DNA of 63,356 nucleotides, filler included, from Neolecta irregularis DAH-3 (lineage: Eukaryota), in assembly GCA_001929475.1 (NCBI GenBank). It is 15 parts of 15 records of this genome, joined end to end, with 100 filler letters (N's around TTAATTAATTAA, not from the genome) between each part and the next. Parts side by side here need not be neighbours in the genome. Positions count along the whole stretch, not along the records: positions 1 to 25,228 come from LXFE01002040.1; 14 more parts are not named here. The stretch is one strand, 5' to 3'. The notes beneath the pieces were generated by a model. It worked only from the letters and a program-made list of their open reading frames with translations. It did not search any database and had not been told where the DNA came from. Below, piece by piece: positions 4,830 through 61,462 of this stretch. Positions within the stretch are counted from its first letter, which is position 1. Each line of letters opens with the position of its first letter. The position numbers and the translations under genes are program-made.

Positions 4830-5575
4830 ATGAACTTCAGCATTCTTCTTGTTCTCCAAATTGCCTCGACCTGGGCTAAACGGACGCGTGAAGAAGCGGC
4901 TGTTGCTGCCCGCGAATTACTCTATCAAGAAAAGATCGCAACTTTGGGTTCGGTTTACGCTGAGGAAGTCGACAAAAGACTTGCTGGAAAACCATTCGGG
5001 TTTGTTCCTAAATCCCATGCGCAGGAGCTAATGGTTCTCAGTTTGATCTCTTATTATGCAGATTGCTCTGACAACGGTACTCCAACATTGCTTCTTGCAT
5101 CAATCGAGATGAGGTTTTTCTGGGTTAACACCTGTACTCATTATAGCATGCGAAATTTCTTAGAAGGCGATTCAGCACTTGCATTATCAATTAGTACGCC
5201 ACCTTCTGGTCCAGACTTTAGTGCTATGCAACATGGTCGTATGTCAATGACCGGAACAGTAACCAAAGTTACTGCCAAAGATGAGGTATGCCAGCCATAA
5301 GAGTTTGGATAGCTGATCATAATTAGATTGAAAGAGTTGAGAAATGTTTTCTAGAAAGACACCCTGATGCCATGATTTGGAAACCCTCAACCAGCGTTCA
5401 CGACTTTGCCTACTTCTCTTTCGATATTGACAGTATTTACTGGCTGGGTGGGTTTGGAAGTGTTGCTTTTATTGGCTACATTCCCGTGGACATTTACCAA
5501 GGAGTTAAACTTGATGATTCTGGCAAGGAAGCTCAGCATGAAGTTTTTCATACTCAAAAGGCCTTTGTCCATTAA
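4830..5575 (+). CDS. Secreted CREG-like / pyridoxamine 5'-phosphate oxidase-fold protein
   Basis: Signal peptide MNFSILLVLQIASTWA, then EEAAVAARELL, PFG..SYYADC, GRMSMTG and IYWLGGFGSVAFIGYIP. Three GT-AG introns. Confidence 0.75.
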
Positions 5576-11252: not shown

Positions 11253-11955
11253 TTATACAGATATTTCAAAGCTCTCCTTGCTACAAGGTAACGCTCTAAA
11301 GTTTGATTCAAAAACTGTGATCTTACGCTGGTTTTCTTCCATTTTCTCATTCGCCATGTCGATTAATACTCGGAGGTAAATCTCATCAACAAGAGGCATC
11401 AAAACATTGTTATTGTAACGCGCTATCGGTGCGGAAATACGCAAACTGGTGCGAATGCCGATCGTAAACTTTTCTCCCCTTATTATCATTCCTGATTCCC
11501 GAAGACCTGCAGCAATAGCTGCTTTTAAGATTTTGTTGGCTGAATCCAAGGTCCGCGCAGATACATGAAGGATCTAACGTCGTAAGATGTGAGCGTCCAC
11601 AAATTCATTGTGATCTCACAAATGGTTCAAAATTAAATGTTACGATCCGACCATCTTCGACTACTCCGAGTGTTTCTCCACTGAATAAGGTTTGAAACAG
11701 ATCAGAATAGTTGTCTATGGAGATCTTTTCATGTGTGACAAATAGCCATTTCCCGCCTCCTTTTTGCGTTTTAATTCCTTCCAGGTAGACTGCAATCCGG
11801 CCTGAACAGCTGGAAGTTGTCACATAATCTTGATGCGCGTTTATTGCACATAAAAGTGGAAGGATCGATATGTCTGGATGGCCCTTGGGAGACGAATCTG
11901 GCAAACAGGATTGCAAAGCCGAAAGAAATTTTTCTTTTCGTGCATCAAACGACAT
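11253..11955 (-). CDS. TYW3: tRNA wybutosine-synthesizing protein 3
   Basis: DSSPKG, DYVTTSSCSGRI, FEPF|ILHV and AGLRESG motifs. One intron. Confidence 0.92.
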
Positions 11956-16576: not shown

Positions 16577-17551
16577 CTAGCTTGGAACATTGGTGAAGCT
16601 TCCCTCTGCCGCTTTGGTTTCCCAAAGCAACTGGCCAATGTCATAGTTACCATGGAAACTCCAACCGTTTTCGTTAATATGGTAGACTATAGTGAGATTT
16701 AAACAGAAAAAAGAACATACGGTGGACACTACCACCAGAATACGCATCCCGGTGAGCTGCAGCGAGAATACTTCGCTTTCCCAATGCCAGAGCTTCCTCG
16801 ACAGTCAATTCCCAGCGATGTCCAGCATCAAGAACACCATATGCAAATGTTTGACCACTTCCTACGCAAAAGAGATCACCTTTGAGACGTGTTCCGTCGC
16901 TGTCCACATAGAAAACTGCAGGACCAGACTTGTCCCAACCGCATATCATCGTTCCCTGACCCGTCAACCGAAATTTCTAGAGTGACACACCATACTCAAC
17001 CCCATACCCTTGTATGAATAAACTATATTTGACAGGATTTTCGAAGCAGCAGCAACACTGATACGTTCTTTATTCCTCAGTTCGTGAAGCCGGCATTGCA
17101 TTCCCAGATACGTCTCCCAGTACTGACAGTCTGCAGCTCCACCAGCCATTGTTCCCAACAGGTACGGATTAATTTCAATAACCTTTTTCACAGTCTGCGA
17201 GGCAATCCAACTTCCCGCAGTTGCTCTGTCCTATGTCAACCATATCTCAAAATTGCAAAACCTCGAGTCAACAGCAATTACTACACCGCCCTGAAATCTG
17301 AATGCGAGAGTTGTGGTGCCGTGGGCAATCTTGATTGTACAGTCGGGATTCTTCGAGTCATCTGTATGTTCCCGTAAAAACGCGGTAGGCTATAAACCCA
17401 TAAACACAAACGGTTTAACACGGGTTCATACATTAGCAATTGGCGGTAACGAGAATGCCGGAACTGCAAATTTGGGTTCCTGGCTGAATGTGTCTTGATC
17501 TAAAGGCCGTTCTTTCTGTGGGAGTGAGTAGCGGGATATAAGAGCGTCCAT
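16577..17551 (-). CDS. PRE2: 20S proteasome subunit beta5 (chymotrypsin-like)
   Basis: Propeptide followed by [51 protein letters not shown] and HRDAYSGG. Four introns. Confidence 0.97.
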
Positions 17552-17749: not shown

Positions 17750-19503
17750 ATGACCACAACCGATATACAACAGCAATGGTCTCTTCAGGATACTTCGCCA
17801 ACTTCAAAAAAGGCACGAATTCCTCTTCTCGCTGTTGAATTGACTAGATGCAGGAACTACTCGGCTGGTATTCATATGCTTTTGCAAGTGAAGTAGTCAG
17901 TGTCGTTACAATCTCGAATCTCGCTCCAGTGGCACTTGATAATTTTGCTCGGGAGAGCGGGTATGCGTCATCTGAACTTGGGAGGAAATGCGAGGAACAA
18001 GATGATCGATGTGTTGTTTATTTTGGAGATTTCGGCATCGACACTACTAGTTTTGCGCTTTATGTATTTTCAATAAGTGTGCTTTTGCAGGCGTTGGTTG
18101 TTATTAGTGTTGGCGGAGCTGCGGATCACGGAAAGTTTTATCGAGAAGAGTGAATTGACGACTTAGGTGACTTGAGAAAGAAACTGCTGGGAATATTCGC
18201 ATATGTCGGTAGTATCACCACGATGTTGTTTATTACTGTTCCTCGCACATGGTACATCCTTGCTGGTTTGCTAATCATTATTCTCAATGTACGTTTATGA
18301 TCCCTAGTTATATAACTAATTTCACCTGCAGATCTGTTTTGGTTCGTCAATGGTATGTCTCAACGCCTTTCTGCCCGTTTTGGTGCGAAACTATGCGTAC
18401 GACTCTGCGGGATTGTTTAATTCAAAAATATTTGGTTTATCTTCAGTACAATCAGAATCACCCGAATTAGATGCCGAGAATATGGAATCGGCAACATTGA
18501 TGAAACCAATACATTCAAACTTACCAGACTCGTACGCTGCTCAGTTGAATCTGTCCTCCCATATCTCATCCCAAGGTATCGCGATTGGGTTGGTAAGTGG
18601 TATTATCCTGCAGTTGATTTGTATCCCTCTTACCATATCCACCGGTTCTGGGACTTCCTCATTACAATACGCGGTTTTCGTCAGCGGGTTATGGTGGTTT
18701 ATATTCACCATTCCATCGATGCGATGGCTTAAAAGTCGACCAGGGCCCCCGCTGCCTACATTCTACAAGGACAAACTCCTATTATTACAATATATCCAAT
18801 ACGGATGGCAAAGTCTTTTTGACACGATCAAGGAAACTGCTCGTACGTTGCTACTTTATTGGTATGGTCTAACAAACTACCAGGTTTGAAAGACGTGATT
18901 ATATTTCTTGTGTCGTGGGCTTTACTAAGTGACGCTCACATTACAATCTCATCGTCTGCAATTCTCTTTGCAAAGACAGATTTACATATCAAGCCAGCAG
19001 GGCTCATCGTCATCGGAATGCTGTCTACACTTTCTGGAATTGTAGGTGCATTCACATGGAGTCGCTACATTTCACCCAAATTTCATCTTTCTCCCGATTC
19101 CGCGATTCGGCTGATTGTTGCATTGTCGTGTTTGATACCGGCTTACGGGTTACTCGGGTTCATCCCGCTGTGTAGACAGATCGGGTTTGGAGGTCTTATC
19201 AATCCAATTGAGATTTATTTCCTTGCTCTGGTTTATGGGTTTTTAAATGGGGCATTGCAGGGATACACTCGTGCTATGTTTGGTTCACTGATTCCCGCTG
19301 GCCGTGAAAGTGGATTTTTTGCGTTATATGCGATTACCGACAAGGGTAGTGCAATGTTTGGGCCGGTGATGGTTGGGATTATAATTGACAAGACACATGA
19401 AATTCGGTGGGCGTTTTTGTTGTTGTTGGTGATGTTGGGATTGTCATTGTTGGTTATGACGTTTGTCAATACCCAGCGAGGACGCCAGGCGGCGAGGCAG
19501 TAA
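17750..19503 (+). CDS. ATG22: Vacuolar amino-acid efflux MFS transporter Atg22
   Basis: TSKK|ELLGWYSYAFASEV, DTTSFALY, ADHG, LKSRPGPPLP and FFALYAITDKGS, with many transmembrane segments. Needs one GC-AG and probably one GA-AG intron. Confidence 0.92.
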
Positions 19504-19822: not shown

Positions 19823-20920
19823 TCAGCTATGATTAATTATGGAGCAACCCCAATTTTCAACGACAAAATCGACGAGAAGAGATCTTACTTGGACGAAGTG
19901 GAAGCCGAGTCTAGAAGTATCGTGAAACAAGAGATGGACTGCAATTTCGGCCGTGAGACCGTTGCGGAGGACTGCAAAGGCTTTGAATTTTAAGGTTTCG
20001 AGTTGGTACATGTCGGCCAGGCGGTAGACCATGGAAGGACTGCAACGGGGTGGTGATTTATCCGGAAATGAATGTGAAGTGTGGTCATCGTGGAGGGGAG
20101 AGGTGAAAGCGATGATGTCGGTATAGAGCCAGTACAAGATTCCATGAAAAGCGTTGATGTCAGGAACAGAGAGGTTTATGACGTGATAGTGTCGGTCCTG
20201 TTCAATGGTGGTCTCTGTAGATCCTTCGGCAAAGTTTCCTGACAGGAGATGTCTAAAGTATTCGCAACGTTTGACTAAGATGGCCTTGTGGGCGTACATT
20301 TGGAGGCTGTCTGGGCCGTTTGACACGCGAAAGAGGACGTCTGAGAAGCTTGGATCGTTGAGAGTGTCGCCAAAGGAGTTGAGGAGCTGGAGAGGGACTT
20401 CTTTTGTGGATTTGTCTGGGGGCTGGTCAAAGAGACAGTTTTCCTCTGTGATGACTTTCAAGGCGAGGACGATGCGCATGCCGTAGAGGGGACCTCGAGG
20501 GGGAACAGTGGAGTCTGGCCAGAGCCACTGCGGGTTCTGATCTGCATCAAAGACAAAGCCATCTGGGCCTTTTATGGATCTGTAGGAAAGCTGCTGGTCA
20601 CCGCGGGGGTCGCGCTTGAGGAATCTGCAGACGATTTCGAAGGAGGCCTTGCGGGTCCAAAAATCACCAAGTTCGCGTTCGCGGGCAGTGGGAATTGGGC
20701 GAAGGGCAAAAGAGTAGCGGTCCCAGATGCAGTCTGAGGCCAGGGCGGTGAGTTCGAGGAGCCATTCTGGGGAGGCGACGAGAGGAAGAGTGCATGTGGG
20801 AGTCGAGGCAAAGGCAGCAGGGGCGAATAGCTCGTGTGGGTTTTCGAGGATGTGTTCTGCAGTGTAGGTGGTCTTTTTTTCTCTGTGGTGGAGTGAGATT
20901 TGTGGGGCAGGAGGGAGCAT
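19823..20920 (-). CDS. BTB/POZ domain protein (intronless, 365 aa)
   Basis: FSDVLFRV...MYAHKAILVKRCEYFRHLLSGNFAEG, FHGILYWLYTD and VYRLADMYQLETLK. Confidence 0.85.
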   Translation of the reverse strand: MLPPAPQISLHHREKKTTYTAEHILENPHELFAPAAFASTPTCTLPLVASPEWLLELTALASDCIWDRYSFALRPIPTARERELGDFWTRKASFEIVCRFLKRDPRGDQQLSYRSIKGPDGFVFDADQNPQWLWPDSTVPPRGPLYGMRIVLALKVITEENCLFDQPPDKSTKEVPLQLLNSFGDTLNDPSFSDVLFRVSNGPDSLQMYAHKAILVKRCEYFRHLLSGNFAEGSTETTIEQDRHYHVINLSVPDINAFHGILYWLYTDIIAFTSPLHDDHTSHSFPDKSPPRCSPSMVYRLADMYQLETLKFKAFAVLRNGLTAEIAVHLLFHDTSRLGFHFVQVRSLLVDFVVENWGCSIINHS

Positions 20921-20934
20921 GTGGCGGTGTTGGA

Positions 20935-21090
20935 GGTGATGGTATGGTGTGTAGATGATGGAGGTGTATGTTGTGGTGGTGGTGTATTGTGACGCTTATT
21001 AGCAGGTGGTGTAAGGTGGTGTATGATTTGGTGAATGTGGTGATTTGGTATAATGTGGTGATTTGGTGTAATGTGGTGATTTGGTGTATC
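20935..21090. repeat. G/T-rich minisatellite (AATGTGGTGATTTGGTGT, about 3-4 copies, plus GGT runs)
   Basis: Directly visible. Confidence 0.8.
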
Positions 21091-21167
21091 AAGATCAGAG
21101 GATTCCATCTCTCCCTCCCCTCAACTTCACTAATCACCGNNNNNNNNNNTAACAGGCCAACTGCAGG

Positions 21168-22370
21168 CAGTGGTGAGGTTGGTAGATTTTATAAAACTCG
21201 CGATTTTACAGGTGTATAAGAACACATTGTAAATATTTGTGTAATGTTTAGCAAGCCACATAAAAGGAGAAGCTAGATCTTCCACTGGAAAAGAGACCTT
21301 CAGGTCAATTAAAAGGCAAATAGTCCGGTCCCGGCCCAAATACAACCCCAGCCCCGGTCCCGGCCCAAGTTCAACCCCCAGCCCAAGCAATCCCCCGCAG
21401 CAGATTGTTGCCGCCAGCGCACCCTTCCCATCCTGCCCTTTCTCTGAGAGACTATAAGCCCTGCTCCACCCGCAGCTTGCCCTTCCCCGCCGCCACCCTG
21501 CCCGCCCCCCGAGCTGGGCCCGAGACTCCTCTTTCGGCGCCTCCGCCTGCCAGTCCAAGTCTATCAAGGTCCGCAACCTCAACATCGTCCAGGCCCACCC
21601 TGCGCTACAGCGAGCGCTCCAACCGGTTTCTTCTTTAATCGAGGTTTGTTTGCGAGCGATTACTTCCCTTGTTGCTTCATCCTTCCAGCATGTGCCCACA
21701 GCAGGTACTCTGTCTCCATATTACAACCCAATATACACACCTCAACATTTGTTGTTTGCCCGTCCTCGCAAAACACCATCACCTTACCTATGTACCAAAG
21801 AATACTGTATTATGGGATACAATTACATTTCAGGATTTGCAATGTGTATTCTTGCATTACTCACCAATGCTGATAGTGCCTTTGGATCAGGCACTACCTC
21901 AATGAAGAATCATAACTGCAGTGACGATGTAGGGCATGGCGAAGAGCGCAGCGGTATTGTAGGCTGAGCCTGGTCCACACATGAAGAGTGCACAGTGCAA
22001 TTGGTGAGAAGGGCAAGCAGCAATGAGAGGGGCAGGGTGAAGACCGTGAGAGGGAGGGAGGCTGGGAGAGTGGTGGCATCAGTGATTCATTAGGTGAGAT
22101 GATCATACTTGATGGGTGTAGATGTCAAGTTAATAATATTGAGTATTTCAACCTGTTTCAGCTTCAACAAAATGAATCAATGAGAGGCTGAGAGAAAGAG
22201 TCAATTGACACATCAGCAATTGATATAAAAATTCATGTTTGAGAACTATTTTGATGACACGATAAATCCCTACTATCTAATATCACATGATACGGCCCAT
22301 TAAGCCCATGGACCGGATGGGCCAGGCTTTTAATGGGCCGGACTAAATCCATGGTCCATCCTCAACACTG
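21168..22370 (+). mobile_element. Non-autonomous hAT-like DNA transposon (about 1.2 kb)
   Basis: Imperfect 15-bp TIRs CAGTGGTGAGGTTGG / CCATCCTCAACACTG and subterminal GGCCC repeats. Internal BED-finger-like remnant C...GSGTTSMKNH. A second copy starts at 24098. No target-site duplication visible. Confidence 0.65.
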
Positions 22371-25228: not shown

Positions 25229-25328
25229 NNNNNNNNNNNNNNNNNNNNNNNNNNNNNNNNNNNNNNNNNNNNTTAATTAATTAANNNNNNNNNNNNNNNN
25301 NNNNNNNNNNNNNNNNNNNNNNNNNNNN
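25229..25328. other. Artificial contig linker N44-TTAATTAATTAA-N44 (13 more start at 29234, 35049, 36218, 37481, 39579, 40783, 44878, 47312, 48435, 50253, 57838, 59323 and 62204)
   Basis: Identical 100-nt spacer with stop codons in all six frames; an assembly artefact. Confidence 0.97.
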
Positions 25329-29027: not shown

Positions 29028-29774
29028 TCTAAAACCAAACAAAAAACGAAATGAGATAGAATCCTGTACATTCCAACGCATTGTACTCTCTGCAACCCCC
29101 CTCCTCGAATCTTTACTCGATATTATCTTTAATGATAGTTCGAGAAAAAGCCGGACTTTTTGAAACAAGCTTGCCTCATGTTGCACACACTGTAGTTTGT
29201 TTGCGGATAATCTCCGATCGGTCTCCTTTTTTTNNNNNNNNNNNNNNNNNNNNNNNNNNNNNNNNNNNNNNNNNNNNTTAATTAATTAANNNNNNNNNNN
29301 NNNNNNNNNNNNNNNNNNNNNNNNNNNNNNNNNAGAAGGGCGACCAGCGGCGGCAGCGCAATCCGCGGCAGCGACGCGGCGTCGGGCGGCGGCAGGCGCA
29401 GCGCGGAGGGTTCCGCGGGCATGGGGATGGTGGTGAGCGTGGTGGTGAGCTTGGTGGAGTGTCGCTGGACTGGCTGCGGTGCTGTTCTCGTTCTTCTGCG
29501 TCCTGTTCTGTCTCTGTCCTGCTCTTCCTCTGAGTCCTGTTCTGTCTGTGGAGTCCTGTTCTTCCTGTCCCACTCTGTCACCTGTTCGTCCTGTTCTCTG
29601 TCCTACTCTTCCTCTGTCCTACTCTTCCTCGTAGAGCCCTACTCTCCACACGCTTACTCTCCACGCGCCTACTCTCCACACTCCGACTCTCCACGCGTCC
29701 TACTCCTCCTACTGTCACTGCAAACACACCCACCCCGTCTGTCTCACGCCCTCCAGCCTGTGTCCGTCTGCCCG

Positions 29775-34927: not shown

Positions 34928-35361
34928 GCGAGCAGAGGACAGCGCAGGCGAGCAGAGTAGCGCTGAGGGTGCGCTCAACCACAGCGGCCGCTCCTTCACG
35001 CGCGTGCCGCCTGGTCACGTGCGCGCTGACCCGGAAGCGGCAGCCACANNNNNNNNNNNNNNNNNNNNNNNNNNNNNNNNNNNNNNNNNNNNTTAATTAA
35101 TTAANNNNNNNNNNNNNNNNNNNNNNNNNNNNNNNNNNNNNNNNNNNNTAGCTGTGAGTGTGACACCTTGTCTTTGTACAGGTGTTCACACCACAGGTGC
35201 TGCCATCCCTTACATAGGGTCTGTGGTATGATTACTACAATAGTACCACTGAGAAGCAATTTTGTCAGGCCTTTGTGGCATTGACCAAAAATTGGCTATT
35301 TCTAGACCTGTCAATATCACCACCAATCATTCTCATTCTCTTCTCATCATTCCGATTCGAA

Positions 35362-46192: not shown

Positions 46193-47091
46193 ATGCTAAT
46201 CCATTCAACTTTCCTTTATATCACTACTTCCTTTACCTTGGCAGCTTGCATTCCTAGTCAAAAATGCGGTCAATATGATGAAATTCATATCGGGGATTAT
46301 TTAATTGGTATTCGGCATCCCGACCTGACTGATGAGAGATAACAACCTCTGGGGCGAAAATGGCTTCAGCGGTACCCAGTGCATCACAGCTGATAACTCT
46401 CAAACAAGTCCAATTTCCTGGGCTAGTAACTGGAATTGGACTGGCGGTCCAAGGTTTGTAGCTTTCCTCGTCAATGCTGATCTGAAGCCAGGTGAAATCG
46501 TATGCGAATTCTAAGGTTACTACGAATCTTCCCATACTAGTCTCCAATATCCACTCAATAAAATCCTCATGGAGTTGGAGGTATCACTCCTTCTATTCAT
46601 TAATATCTTGATGACTGTCAGTTACTCTGAAACAGATATAGTGGCAGATGTAGCCTATGATCTCTTTCTCGGACCCAAGTCGGATAGTAAATACGATTTT
46701 GAAATCATGATCTGGTATTTATCGCCTTAAGTTGAATATCCTGAAAATTTTCCAGGCTTGCAGGTTTTGGGGAAATGGGTCCATTGGGGTCTTCTATCGA
46801 CAAAAATATCACACTTGCCGGGCACAGTTGGACACTTTTCTACGGAAAGAGTGATCATACAGTTTATTCTTTCGTAAGAGAAGGCAACGATATTCCAGTT
46901 TTCGAGGAGGACATATATGGGTTCGTGAAGCACTTGGTAACGAACGGAGCTCTACCGAGTAATTATTACTTGGTCTATCTAGGAGGTATTCCCTTTATTT
47001 TACAACGCGAGCTAATGCAATAGCCGGAACGGAGGCAATCTCAGGAAATGCATATTTCCAAACAACCTCTTACACAGCCAGCATATTGTAG
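46193..47091 (+). CDS. Secreted glycoside hydrolase family 12 endoglucanase/xyloglucanase
   Basis: Signal peptide, CGQYD, NNLWG..SGTQC, VKSYAN, ADVAYDLF, EIMIW|LA (nucleophile Glu) and AGTE (acid/base Glu). Five introns. Confidence 0.93.
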
Positions 47092-56083: not shown

Positions 56084-56782
<699 letters not shown>

Positions 56783-59422: not shown

Positions 59423-61462
59423 CCAGCCACTCGGCCCGCGGCATGCACTGGCTGCGCGCCCACCTCGCTGCTGCGGGCAAAACCCCCGACGGCCTCGCTG
59501 CCGCCCTGCGCGCCATGGACGCTACTGCTGTTGCTGAGGTGCGTCCCTGTGCCTGCGCCGGTTAGTTGGCCCTGCCTGGGTTCCCGCCCCCGGGTTAACC
59601 CTAGGGTTGGCCCTAGTTGACCCAGGTGGGTTGACTAACCCAACGGCCAGGAGCGTTCCGGCCACGCTAACCCGCCCAGCTCTGCGACGACCAGTTCGAG
59701 GAACACATCCTCGCATACCCGCCGCACCGCAGCGGCCTCTATCTGCACGGCATCAACAGAAACACCCCCCAGTTCGTCACCTACCCCTTTGCCCGCGTCT
59801 GCGCCTTCGCCCGCGAGTGGGGCTTCCGCCAGACGCCCTGCCTCGAGAAGCACGACGTCCCCGCCCTCCGGTCCCTGCTCGCCGACGCCGCAACGACAGG
59901 CTCCTGGGCCGGCACGCCCACTGAGGGCTTCGTCGTCCGCTGCCAGGCCAGAGACGATCTGACCGCCGACGACCAGTGGTACGACTACTTCTTCAAGTAC
60001 AAGTTTGACGAGCCCTATCTCATGTATCGCCAGTGGCGCGAGCTCACCAAAGACATCATCGCAAACCGCGTCCTCAGAAATATGCACAAAAAGAACGCAA
60101 TCACTCGCTCCTATGTCCGCTGGGCCAGAAAAACACTCGCCGCCAGCCCCCCCGACGTCGCCAGCCAGTACCTGCGCAACCACGGCATCATTGCCCTGCG
60201 CGAAGAGTTTCTCAAACAATATGCTCCCAAGCCAACAGACTCGGACAGTTCCGTGGCCACGGAAATTACCACAGACACCCCCCTCGTACTCGTACCCGTT
60301 GCGACTGTAGGGTGCGGAAAAACATCAGTCGCCCTGGCCCTGGCAAGACTCTTTGGCTGGGCACATGTTCAGAATGACGACAACACCCGCAGAAAGGGAG
60401 CCGCTAAACATTTTGCCTCGTTAATTTCCGAGCAACTAGACACAACAAACATTTGTATCGCAGATCGGCACGTTGCTCCTAGAGTTTGCTAATTCTAGAA
60501 ATAACCACCTCGCCTCACTTCGACAAACATTGATAGACGATATCAGCCGCCACAAGCCCGATGCACGTTTTATTGCCCTGCACTGGGTCCACGACAACTC
60601 TGCAATCAAGAAAATTTACAAAACTACCCTGCATCGCGTACTCGCTAGAGGCGACAATCACCAATCAATCCAAGCAAGTGACGGAATTAAGCAAGTCTTG
60701 GGAATCATGGATGGTTTTCTTCATTCATTTCAACCCTGCAACGACGACCAATCGCCAGACGACAATTTCGATTTTGTAATAGATCTCCATCCACTCAAAT
60801 CATCCCGCGAGAACCTCGAGACGGTAATCACCACATTACGTCAACATTTCCCCGCAATCGTCCCCGAGATCCCTCCTCCTCAAGATCTAGATGATGCAAT
60901 CAAATTTGCCTTGGAAGAATATCACCCACAAATCAGAAAGAACGTACGTGATAAACTATTGTATTTCGCAGGTGTACTGGATCATAATATGGTTGATATC
61001 CTCGAATCAATCTATGCCAAACACCCCGAATCAAATCGAGAGTTTTTCGATTTCCTCCGCGCTAATCAAGGCTTCAAGGCCGAATTTCACGTTACCCTCG
61101 CTCACTTATGCGACAAGGCAACTCACCCACAGATATGGCAACACTATAAAAAACTCTTGTCATCAGAAATAACCACAGAAATAGAATTACAACTGCAAGA
61201 AATAGTCTGGAATGACCGGATAATGTGCGTACCCGTAACCCTTGTGCAGAAAGACGACGATAGAGTAGAATGTACCCATGAATACCCTCATATAACAATT
61301 GGCCTCGCTAATGATACGGTAAAACCAGTTGAAGCGTTGCAAATGCTACAAAAGAGGGCCACAGGCGAATTAGACGACATACACTCGATCACTATCCACC
61401 AAGATATAAAATTAAATGCACATGTCCGTGGAATTACTTACAAAAAAGGGCCGCAGGCTTAG
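59423..61462 (+). CDS. TRL1: Fungal tRNA ligase Trl1 (5'-truncated)
   Basis: AE|LCDDQFEEHIL, EGFVVRC and FFKYKFDEPYLMYRQWRE (ligase); VATVGCGKT and ADR|NNH (kinase); FHVTL and PHITIG (CPD). Confidence 0.96.

What the first reader, a model, noticed from the sequence alone, without database searches (positions are those of the whole stretch)
18131..18166. Candidate GA-AG intron in ATG22
Seen: the unspliced frame stops at TGA 18151-18153. Removing 36 nt GAAAGT...TTGAC..TTAG gives ADHG-DLRKKLL, which fits the Atg22 motif. The donor is GTAAGT with +2 changed to A. The only nearby in-frame GT alternative is a 27-nt intron ending in GAG, shorter than any other intron inferred here. Inference: functional GA-AG splicing, which is very rare.
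Basis: partly seen in the sequence, partly recalled or inferred. Interest (0 to 1): 0.72.

Follow-up and report, generated by a model that had tools for sequence, protein, structure and literature searches.

The report
Short ATG22 intron starting with GA
A 36-base intron in the autophagy gene ATG22 of the fungus Neolecta irregularis sits exactly where related fungi have an ordinary intron, but it begins with GA instead of the near-universal GT; this probably explains why the public gene model lacks its first exon, and whether the cell splices it is untested.

Summary
The sequence facts hold. ATG22 (Pfam PF11700 on four exons) is broken by one in-frame TGA (18151-18153). That stop lies in a 36-nt stretch, GAAAGT..TTGAC..TTAG (18131-18166).

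Removing exactly this stretch restores the spacing ADHG-x-x-[RK]K, which is seen in 78 of 78 resolvable metagenome orthologues. The start of the stretch falls on the same nucleotide and phase as an intron found in 32 of 80 related loci. All 27 distinct introns there start with GT.

Ten other homology-backed introns in the window are 31-46 nt, so 36 nt is normal.

It and the 27-nt option score about 10 bits worse against an orthologue profile. Both end in GAG, which none of the 37 compared introns does.

So this is a position-conserved intron whose donor reads GA in this assembly. Functional GA-AG splicing is the best reading (about 0.55) but is not shown. No RNA runs or raw reads could be reached. 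A donor-killing allele or a base error remain possible.

The public protein model starts at 18223 and lacks exon 1. GA-AG introns are already known at low frequency in fungi, so interest is modest.

The parts
17848..18130 (+). ATG22 exon 1. It starts at the first ATG after in-frame stops and ends with the first base of the Gly codon of the ADHG motif.
   Evidence: Pfam PF11700 E=8.7e-30, profile 4-100; upstream stops. It is absent from the public protein model P0001, which starts at 18223.
18131..18166 (+). Candidate 36-nt phase-1 intron with GA-AG termini
   Evidence: Same site and phase as the GT-AG intron in 32 of 80 related loci. Its removal gives the best orthologue-profile score, 133.1 bits.
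18131..18136 (+). Donor hexamer GAAAGT, which is GTAAGT with A at +2. The preceding exon base is G.
   Evidence: 6 of 8 positions (-2..+6) match AG|GTAAGT despite the +2 mismatch. This equals the best of the local GT introns.
18151..18153 (+). In-frame TGA, the only stop in the unspliced frame
18155..18159 (+). Branch-like TTGAC, with its A 8 nt from the 3' end
   Evidence: The 35-nt proteasome beta5 intron (16956-16990) has the same motif at the same distance.
18163..18166 (+). Acceptor TTAG, the first AG after the branch-like motif
18167..18288 (+). ATG22 exon 2
   Evidence: Pfam PF11700 profile 96-139. P0001 starts inside it at 18223.
18289..18331 (+). ATG22 intron 2, 43 nt, GTACGT..CTAAT..CAG
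   Evidence: P0001 reads across it
18332..18842 (+). ATG22 exon 3
18843..18883 (+). ATG22 intron 3, 41 nt, GTACGT..CTAAC..CAG
   Evidence: P0001 reads across it
18884..19503 (+). ATG22 exon 4, including the stop codon
   Evidence: Pfam profile 284-481; 100% identical to P0001
18135..18176 (+). Rival in-frame 42-nt GT-AG (GTTTTA..GAG)
   Evidence: Its product is 2 residues short, 122.2 bits against 133.1. It has a GAG acceptor.
18150..18176 (+). Rival in-frame 27-nt GT-AG (GTGAAT..GAG)
   Evidence: Its product is 3 residues long, 123.4 bits. It is shorter than all 10 homology-backed introns of the window (31-46 nt).

Best explanation
18131-18166 is the Neolecta irregularis copy of an old, position-conserved spliceosomal intron of ATG22. 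It lies in phase 1, inside the Gly codon of the ADHG motif in the loop after the second membrane helix. In this assembly its donor reads GA instead of GT. The most likely reading is that the major spliceosome still removes it as a GA-AG intron. Three features would help this: the otherwise optimal donor context (G|GAAAGT), a TTGAC branch site 8 nt from a TTAG acceptor, and the tight length definition of this organism's 31-46-nt introns. Splicing would then yield a full-length Atg22 with the normal ADHG-x-x-RK spacing.

Shown: the sequence, the intron homology, the product fit and the local intron norms. Inferred: that the GA base is real and that splicing occurs. A practical consequence is that the public protein model (398 aa, starting at 18223) misses exon 1, probably because gene callers do not allow GA donors.
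For: Organism and gene:
- Exon 4 is 100% identical to the protein named 'Autophagy-related protein 22-2 [Neolecta irregularis DAH-3]'.
- PF11700 is found on all four exons.

Spacing:
- Of 80 metagenome loci, 78 could be resolved, and all 78 read ADHG(or P)-x-x-[RK][KRQ].
- 39 of the 40 usable library orthologues have the same offset.
- Against a profile of those 40, the 36-nt removal scores 133.1 bits. The 42-nt option scores 122.2, the 27-nt option 123.4 and the unspliced form 122.1.

Intron homology:
- 32 of 80 loci carry an intron starting right after the first G of that Gly codon. They make 27 distinct sequences, 28-90 nt with a median of 35, and all 27 start with GT.
- Their acceptors are TAG 17, CAG 8, AAG 2 and GAG 0.
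- 46 of the 80 loci have no intron there. 2 run off the contig right after G|GT.

Local norms:
- 10 other homology-backed introns in the window are 31-46 nt, and all 10 end in YAG.
- Two proteasome beta5 introns of 35 and 36 nt use TTGAC 8-10 nt from the 3' end.
- One of the 10 is a GC-AG intron, so non-GT donors occur here.

Donor context: 6 of 8 matches to AG|GTAAGT, which would be 7 of 8 with T at +2. This equals or beats every local GT donor.

Base quality: the assembly is reported at 199-fold coverage (PMC5309816, section read). The site lies about 3 kb from the nearest N gap.

Prior: RNA-backed annotation of Ganoderma lingzhi lists 35 GA-AG sites, 0.038% (PMC11590231, table passage). GA-AG is among the non-canonical types seen in Fusarium graminearum (PMC3577648, passage).
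Against: - There is no RNA evidence and there are no raw reads for position 18132.
- All 27 distinct orthologous introns in relatives have GT. GA is therefore a derived single-base change, of the kind that commonly abolishes a donor.
- ATG22 is dispensable in laboratory yeast (recalled knowledge), so a null allele could persist.
- The authors' gene model, built with RNA data, does not include exon 1. This is weak evidence, because standard aligners and gene callers reject GA donors and very short introns (recalled).
- The strong rest of the donor is only weak evidence of compensation. 4 of the 9 local GT donors also have R at +3, G at +5 and T at +6.
- The splice-like pattern alone occurs 14 times with GA in the window.
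Confidence: 0.55

Rival explanations
1. Donor-killing allele (a young pseudogene or hypomorph). A T-to-A change at +2 of the ancestral GT donor abolished normal splicing in the sequenced specimen or lineage. Transcripts either keep the intron and stop at TGA 18151, or use the next GT (18135) with the native acceptor (18166). That second route removes 32 nt, shifts the frame and stops at once.
For: All 27 distinct orthologous introns start with GT. The GT at 18135 lies 4 nt downstream. GTTTTG-type donors do work in this genome, as in the beta5 intron 17226-17261, validated against yeast Pre2. The first AG after the branch-like motif is 18166. The public model lacks exon 1.
Against: The rest of the gene shows no other lesion. 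All four exons keep strong PF11700 scores and both other introns are canonical, so any inactivation must be very recent. From the rates cited, functional GA-AG introns are expected to outnumber single-lesion +2 splice pseudogenes in a genome. That comparison is my inference, not a measurement.
Confidence: 0.2
2. Base-call or assembly error, or a minority allele captured by the assembler. The true donor is an ordinary GTAAGT and nothing is unusual.
For: A single substitution would restore the consensus donor. The specimen was a field-collected fruiting body (PMC5309816, section read). Raw reads could not be inspected.
Against: Coverage is reported as 199-fold. The site is far from gaps and contig ends. 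The change is a substitution, not a homopolymer-length error. At usual consensus error rates, the expected number of errors falling on a +2 donor base in a 14.5-Mb genome is well below one (inference).
Confidence: 0.1
3. A canonical GT-AG intron is used instead. It would be the 42-nt 18135-18176 (GTTTTA..GAG, product ADHGKKKLL) or the 27-nt 18150-18176 (GTGAAT..GAG, product ADHGKFYREEKKLL).
For: Both are in frame and bypass the stop. A GTTTTG donor is validated next door. 42 nt is within the local size range.
Against: The products are 2 residues short or 3 long in a loop whose spacing is invariant in 78 of 78 loci, with 39 of 40 library orthologues at the same offset. They score 10.9 and 9.7 bits lower. 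Both need a GAG acceptor and must skip the TTAG at 18166, whereas 0 of 27 orthologous and 0 of 10 local introns end in GAG. Neither coincides with the conserved intron site. 27 nt is below the local minimum of 31.
Confidence: 0.07
4. No splicing takes place. The TGA is read through, recoded or edited, and a 12-residue insertion is tolerated in the loop.
For: The 36 nt are a multiple of three, and TGA is the only stop in the unspliced frame.
Against: No orthologue has an insertion here. The unspliced form scores 11 bits lower even with the stop masked. The stretch has full intron anatomy at a conserved intron site. The A of the TGA is preceded by G, whereas known fungal A-to-I mRNA editing prefers U before the edited A (recalled).
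Confidence: 0.02

Closest known systems
The orthologous GT-AG intron of ATG22 in related, unnamed fungal metagenome contigs (for example L001, L004, L038, L047)
   Same: Same nucleotide position and phase, after the first G of the Gly codon of ADHG. Similar ultra-short length (median 35 nt), a branch-like motif close to a YAG acceptor, and the same spliced spacing G-x-x-RK.
   Different: All 27 distinct sequences start with GT, whereas the Neolecta copy reads GA. The best relatives are only about 50% identical in exon 1, so none is a close species.
Rare GA-AG introns reported in fungi: Ganoderma lingzhi (35 sites, 0.038%; PMC11590231, table passage) and Fusarium graminearum (listed among non-canonical types; PMC3577648, passage)
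   Same: A GA donor with a normal AG acceptor in an otherwise ordinary protein-coding gene of a fungus. Failure to recognise such sites breaks gene models.
   Different: Those cases rest on transcript evidence, and this one has none. This intron is far shorter (36 nt) and sits in an early-diverging ascomycete.
GA-AG introns of the human FGFR genes, and the abundant GA-AG introns of Eurytemora affinis and Oikopleura dioica (as described in PMC7072748, passages and section 3.1 read; the primary papers were not seen)
   Same: GA at the donor with A at +3 and a strong remaining donor context. They are spliced by the major spliceosome.
   Different: FGFR use is said to depend on a canonical site six nucleotides upstream. 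No GT lies upstream of 18131 here. In the two animals GA-AG is a genome-wide habit. Here only one case is seen among 11 homology-backed introns.
GC-AG introns, the main non-canonical class; one is in this window at 60468-60498
   Same: A single change at +2 of the donor, with the rest of the hexamer matching the favoured local donor (GCACGT against GTACGT; GAAAGT against GTAAGT).
   Different: C at +2 is widely tolerated (about 1-2% of fungal introns). A at +2 is roughly fifty times rarer in the Ganoderma table.

Membership tests
Spliceosomal (U2-type) intron | Interrupts a conserved ORF, and its removal restores the frame and collinearity with orthologues | tested here: met
   Removal gives ADHG-x-x-RK spacing, as in 78 of 78 resolvable loci. 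It gives the best profile score, 133.1 bits against 122-127 for the alternatives.
Spliceosomal (U2-type) intron | Positional homology with introns of orthologous genes | tested here: met
   32 of 80 related loci have an intron at the same nucleotide and phase.
Spliceosomal (U2-type) intron | GT (or GC) at the 5' end | tested here: not met
   The sequence reads GA at 18131-18132. All 27 distinct orthologous introns and 9 of 10 local introns read GT, and 1 local intron reads GC.
Spliceosomal (U2-type) intron | Branch-site motif near the 3' end and a YAG acceptor | tested here: met
   TTGAC with its A 8 nt before TTAG. The validated 35-nt beta5 intron has the same layout.
Spliceosomal (U2-type) intron | Length within the organism's range | tested here: met
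   36 nt, against 31-46 nt for 10 homology-backed introns of the window.
Spliceosomal (U2-type) intron | Actually excised from RNA | not testable with these tools
   No RNA run was listed, so read laying could not be used.
Functional GA-AG intron | GA...AG termini in the genomic DNA, confirmed in reads | tested here: inconclusive
   Present in the assembly. Coverage is reported as 199-fold.
Functional GA-AG intron | Transcript junction at the GA donor | not testable with these tools
   The RNA data of the genome paper are not listed among the deposited data.
Functional GA-AG intron (FGFR type) | Canonical GT six nucleotides upstream of the GA site | tested here: not met
   There is no GT in 18113-18130. 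This feature is named in PMC7072748.
U12-type (minor) intron | Long conserved donor (ATATCC or GTATCC) and a TCCTTAAC-like branch site (motifs recalled) | tested here: not met
   The donor is GAAAGT and the only branch-like motif is TTGAC.
Atg22 / PF11700 (the host gene) | Match to the family profile over its whole length | tested here: met
   The four exons cover profile 4-100, 96-139, 140-281 and 284-481 of 482, each above the 24.1-bit cut-off.

The most novel reading that the evidence does not exclude
Neolecta's spliceosome works on introns of only about 31-46 nt, whose donors are very degenerate beyond the first two bases. It may tolerate A or C at +2 fairly generally. If so, a hidden class of GA-AG (and GC-AG) introns lies behind truncated or split gene models across the genome. 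In this window, 2 of 11 homology-backed introns lack GT. One is the GA case, which was selected beforehand. The other is a GC-AG intron found independently at 60468-60498.
Probability: 0.12. Interest if true: 0.55.

Novelty: new member of a known kind. Interest (0 to 1): 0.3.

Why it matters
There are three reasons.
- It corrects a gene model. The public Atg22 protein of N. irregularis lacks about 117 N-terminal residues, including the first two predicted membrane helices (my reading, not computed) and the ADHG..RK loop. The likely cause is that callers refuse a GA donor.
- If RNA confirms the junction, it would be a clean natural example of a GA donor at a site where all 27 distinct orthologous introns in relatives have GT. 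It would sit in an organism with some of the shortest introns among fungi. That makes it useful for asking how much the +2 base matters when intron length and the branch-to-acceptor spacing define the intron.
- If RNA shows no such junction, it is simply a young splice-site null allele of a non-essential autophagy gene.

In every case it is one intron, and GA-AG splicing is already documented in fungi at about 0.04% of sites.

Tried and rejected
- **RNA and reads:** None was listed, which is not the same as none existing. No whole genome is held for this window, so U1 and U6 snRNA genes, paralogues and a genome-wide GA-AG count could not be examined.
- **Earlier scan notes:** nothing was on record for this genome, these words or this sequence. 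The one note shown concerned an alga and had no bearing.
- **Unsupervised intron scans:** scans that used open flanking frames plus branch and acceptor motifs did not discriminate. One search gave GT 1194 against 1071-1892 for six other dinucleotides. One search gave GT 135 against 99-179 for the other 15. One search gave mostly false long candidates. I dropped these scans and used only introns backed by profile or structure-sequence contiguity.
- **Pattern count:** GA 14, GT 16, GC 16 and GG 5, so the motif alone means nothing. One of the other GA hits (56186-56228) was checked. It is an artefact lying 4 nt upstream of the real GT donor of RPL11 intron 1. The other 12 were not examined.
- **Protein-level search for a second copy of exon 1:** the representative search gave no hit above 81% identity over a short stretch, and the best full-stretch hit was 61% identical. 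It could not reveal the +2 base anyway, because GGA and GGT both encode Gly.
- **RNA genes:** Rfam and tRNA scans of the window found nothing.
- **Genome paper (PMC5309816):** a term search for intron, RNA-seq, splice and related words gave 0 hits in the main text. Only sections 6 and 19 and the outline were read. Its supplements (Supplementary Table 1) were not opened and may hold intron statistics.
- **Other readings considered and rejected:** an AT-AC or U12 reading (no motif); stop-codon readthrough or A-to-I editing (see rivals); and a second 36-nt GA-AG window at 18145-18180 (donor GAAGAG, 127.0 bits, not at the conserved site).

Full report
**What the window is.** Exon 4 of the gene is 100% identical to a 398-aa protein that a source names 'Autophagy-related protein 22-2 [Neolecta irregularis DAH-3]'. 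The window is a chain of contigs joined by artificial spacers (44 N, TTAATTAATTAA, 44 N). The first spacer starts at 25229, and the longest contig recorded for that protein is 25228 nt. ATG22 therefore lies on the first contig, about 3 kb from the nearest N gap (21140).

**Gene model.** The gene is on the + strand. Pfam PF11700 (Atg22) matches four pieces, at profile positions 4-100, 96-139, 140-281 and 284-481 of 482.
- Exon 1: 17848-18130
- Candidate intron: 18131-18166
- Exon 2: 18167-18288
- Intron 2: 18289-18331 (43 nt, GTACGT)
- Exon 3: 18332-18842
- Intron 3: 18843-18883 (41 nt, GTACGT)
- Exon 4: 18884-19503

The public protein reads across introns 2 and 3 exactly as above. However, it begins at the ATG at 18223 inside exon 2, so it lacks exon 1.

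**The observation.**
- The frame from ATG 17848 runs into TGA at 18151-18153.
- The 36 nt at 18131-18166 read GAAAGT...TTGAC...TTAG.
- Cutting them out joins G|GT into a Gly codon and gives ADHG followed by DLRKKLL.
- One statement is wrong. Besides the 27-nt GT..GAG option (18150-18176), there is an in-frame 42-nt GT..GAG option (18135-18176). There are also longer ones that would delete the ADHG motif.
- The splice-like pattern by itself is not significant. The same loose pattern matches 14 times with GA, 16 with GT, 16 with GC and 5 with GG in the window.

**Is it an intron? Product fit.** Full-length orthologues read ADHG-x-x-RK(K/T)LL. I searched 1.84 billion representatives with exon 1 and took the 150 best. 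Of these, 40 span the junction: they have the AD[HRYK] motif, at least 60 residues beyond it, and a basic pair within 14 residues. The other 110 were dropped as truncated or lacking the motif. In 39 of the 40 the basic pair lies at offset 3, and in 1 at offset 4. Against a profile of these 40, the scores are as follows:

| Form | Bits |
|---|---|
| 36-nt removal (18131-18166) | 133.1 |
| Second 36-nt window (18145-18180) | 127.0 |
| 27-nt option | 123.4 |
| 42-nt option | 122.2 |
| Unspliced form with the stop masked | 122.1 |

**Is it an intron? Position.** Many short proteins in that search were ORFs that follow the orthologues up to ADHG and then diverge or stop. This hinted at an intron there in other fungi. 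A scan of metagenome contigs with an exon-1 alignment returned 80 loci, at most 50% identical.
- In 46 of them the frame runs straight on as G-x-x-[RK]K.
- In 32 an intron starts immediately after the first G of the Gly codon and restores the same spacing.
- The other 2 run off the contig just after G|GT.

The 5' boundary was fixed by the alignment, not by a GT requirement. Even so, all 27 distinct intron sequences begin with GT. They are 28-90 nt long with a median of 35. They end in TAG (17), CAG (8) or AAG (2), and never in GAG. The Neolecta stretch therefore lies at the same nucleotide and phase as an old, widespread intron.

**Local calibration.** Ten other introns in the window are backed by contiguous profile or solved-structure coordinates.

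| Gene | Coordinates | Length | Donor |
|---|---|---|---|
| CREG | 5286-5326 | 41 | GTATGC |
| TYW3 | 11574-11619 | 46 | GTGAGA |
| Proteasome beta5 | 16956-16990 | 35 | GTGTGT |
| Proteasome beta5 | 17226-17261 | 36 | GTTTTG |
| ATG22 intron 2 | 18289-18331 | 43 | GTACGT |
| ATG22 intron 3 | 18843-18883 | 41 | GTACGT |
| GH12 | 46715-46755 | 41 | GTATTT |
| RPL11 | 56341-56381 | 41 | GTACGT |
| RPL11 | 56583-56618 | 36 | GTATGC |
| tRNA ligase | 60468-60498 | 31 | GCACGT (GC-AG) |

The two beta5 introns were checked by residue-contiguous alignment to yeast Pre2 chains. All ten end in YAG. So 36 nt is ordinary here and 27 nt is below the observed minimum. TTGAC 8 nt before the acceptor is exactly the layout of the 35-nt beta5 intron. 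Donors are loose beyond GT. Because GTTTTG works, the GTTTTA at 18135 cannot be dismissed on donor grounds alone.

**The GT rivals.** The 42-nt and 27-nt options fail on three independent counts.
- Their products break a loop spacing that is invariant in 78 of 78 loci (39 of 40 in the library set) and cost about 10 bits.
- They need a GAG acceptor and must skip the well-placed TTAG at 18166. No GAG occurs among the 27 orthologous or 10 local introns.
- They are not at the conserved site.

If the GT at 18135 were used with the native branch site and acceptor, 32 nt would be removed, and the frame would shift into an immediate stop. That is the expected outcome if GA is dead.

**Is GA real, and is it used?** I could not test either point.
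- No RNA run was listed.
- No genome or reads are held.
- The genome paper states that RNA was sequenced, but its data-availability section names only the assembly.
- Protein-level comparison cannot see the base, since GGA and GGT both encode Gly.

In favour of a real, used GA donor:
- Coverage is reported as 199-fold, and the change is a substitution well away from gaps.
- The rest of the gene is intact.
- The donor is otherwise the best in the local set, with 6 of 8 matches to AG|GTAAGT, or 7 of 8 if +2 were T.
- A GC-AG intron in the same small sample shows that +2 is not inviolable here.
- GA-AG sites are documented in fungi with transcript support: 35 sites, 0.038%, in Ganoderma lingzhi, and GA-AG is listed for Fusarium graminearum.

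Against:
- All 27 distinct orthologous introns in relatives have GT.
- A +2 change is a classic donor-killing mutation.
- ATG22 is non-essential in yeast (recalled).
- The 'compensation' signal is weak, because 4 of the 9 local GT donors share R3, G5 and T6.

Weighing rough expected numbers per genome, I expect a handful of functional GA-AG introns. I expect fewer than one +2 splice null allele with no second lesion, and far fewer than one consensus error on a +2 base. This is inference. On that basis I put functional GA-AG at about 0.55, a null or hypomorphic allele at 0.20, a base error or minority allele at 0.10, the GT rivals at 0.07 and readthrough or editing at 0.02.

**Comparison with what is known.**
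- GA-AG splicing is known in the human FGFR genes, where it is said to depend on a GT six bases upstream. No such GT is present here.
- In fungi GT-AG makes up 98.7% of annotated sites, and GA-AG is a rare minor class.
- This case would be a new member of that known kind. It is notable for its 36-nt length, its perfectly conserved position, and the truncated public gene model it explains.
- The boldest reading the data allow is that Neolecta tolerates non-U at +2 more widely. 2 of 11 homology-backed introns here lack GT, one of them selected beforehand. I give this about 0.12.

**Verdict.** The intron is real in the evolutionary sense. Its GA donor is unproven at read level, and its splicing is unproven at RNA level. 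Interest is modest unless RNA confirms it or more cases turn up.

Noticed in passing
60468-60498 (+): The tRNA ligase (Trl1-like) gene needs a 31-nt GC-AG intron (GCACGT..CTAAT..TAG, phase 2). Pfam tRNA_lig_kinase runs to position 61 before it and resumes at 63 after it, with the split Arg codon as 62. No GT-AG solution exists at this junction. It is the shortest homology-backed intron in the window.
   Followed up: yes
25229-25328 and 13 further places (for example 29234-29333, 35049-35148): The window is not one contiguous piece. Contigs are joined by artificial spacers of 44 N, TTAATTAATTAA and 44 N. Only 1-25228 is contiguous with ATG22, and it has two 10-N gaps at 21140 and 22730. Features must not be read across these joints.
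   Followed up: partly
17226-17261 (-): The proteasome beta5 gene has a 36-nt intron with the weak donor GTTTTG. It skips an ATAG lying 4 nt after the branch-like A and uses the ACAG 6 nt further on. This was validated by residue-contiguous alignment to yeast Pre2.
   Followed up: yes
L001-L080, for example L001:1787-1822, L038, L049, L072: Unnamed fungal contigs from metagenomes carry ultra-short introns (28-37 nt in 20 of 27 distinct sequences) at the ATG22 site. Their donors are very degenerate: 18 different hexamers, including GTTTTC, GTCGTT and GTCTTA, and only 12 of 27 have G at +5. Several are in frame without a stop, so prokaryote-style gene calls read straight through them.
   Followed up: partly
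56124-56782 (+): The ribosomal protein uL5 (RPL11) gene has three introns of 39, 41 and 36 nt (GTAGAC, GTACGT, GTATGC). The last two are backed by contiguous profile coordinates and the first only by reading. A GAAAGT lying 4 nt upstream of the first donor mimics a GA donor but is exonic.
   Followed up: partly
20575-21188 (-): Overlapping long open frames are rich in His, Pro and Thr, with repeated HHITPNHH-like units. They lie next to a BTB-domain gene (19826-20995) and a 10-N gap. There is no family match.
   Followed up: no
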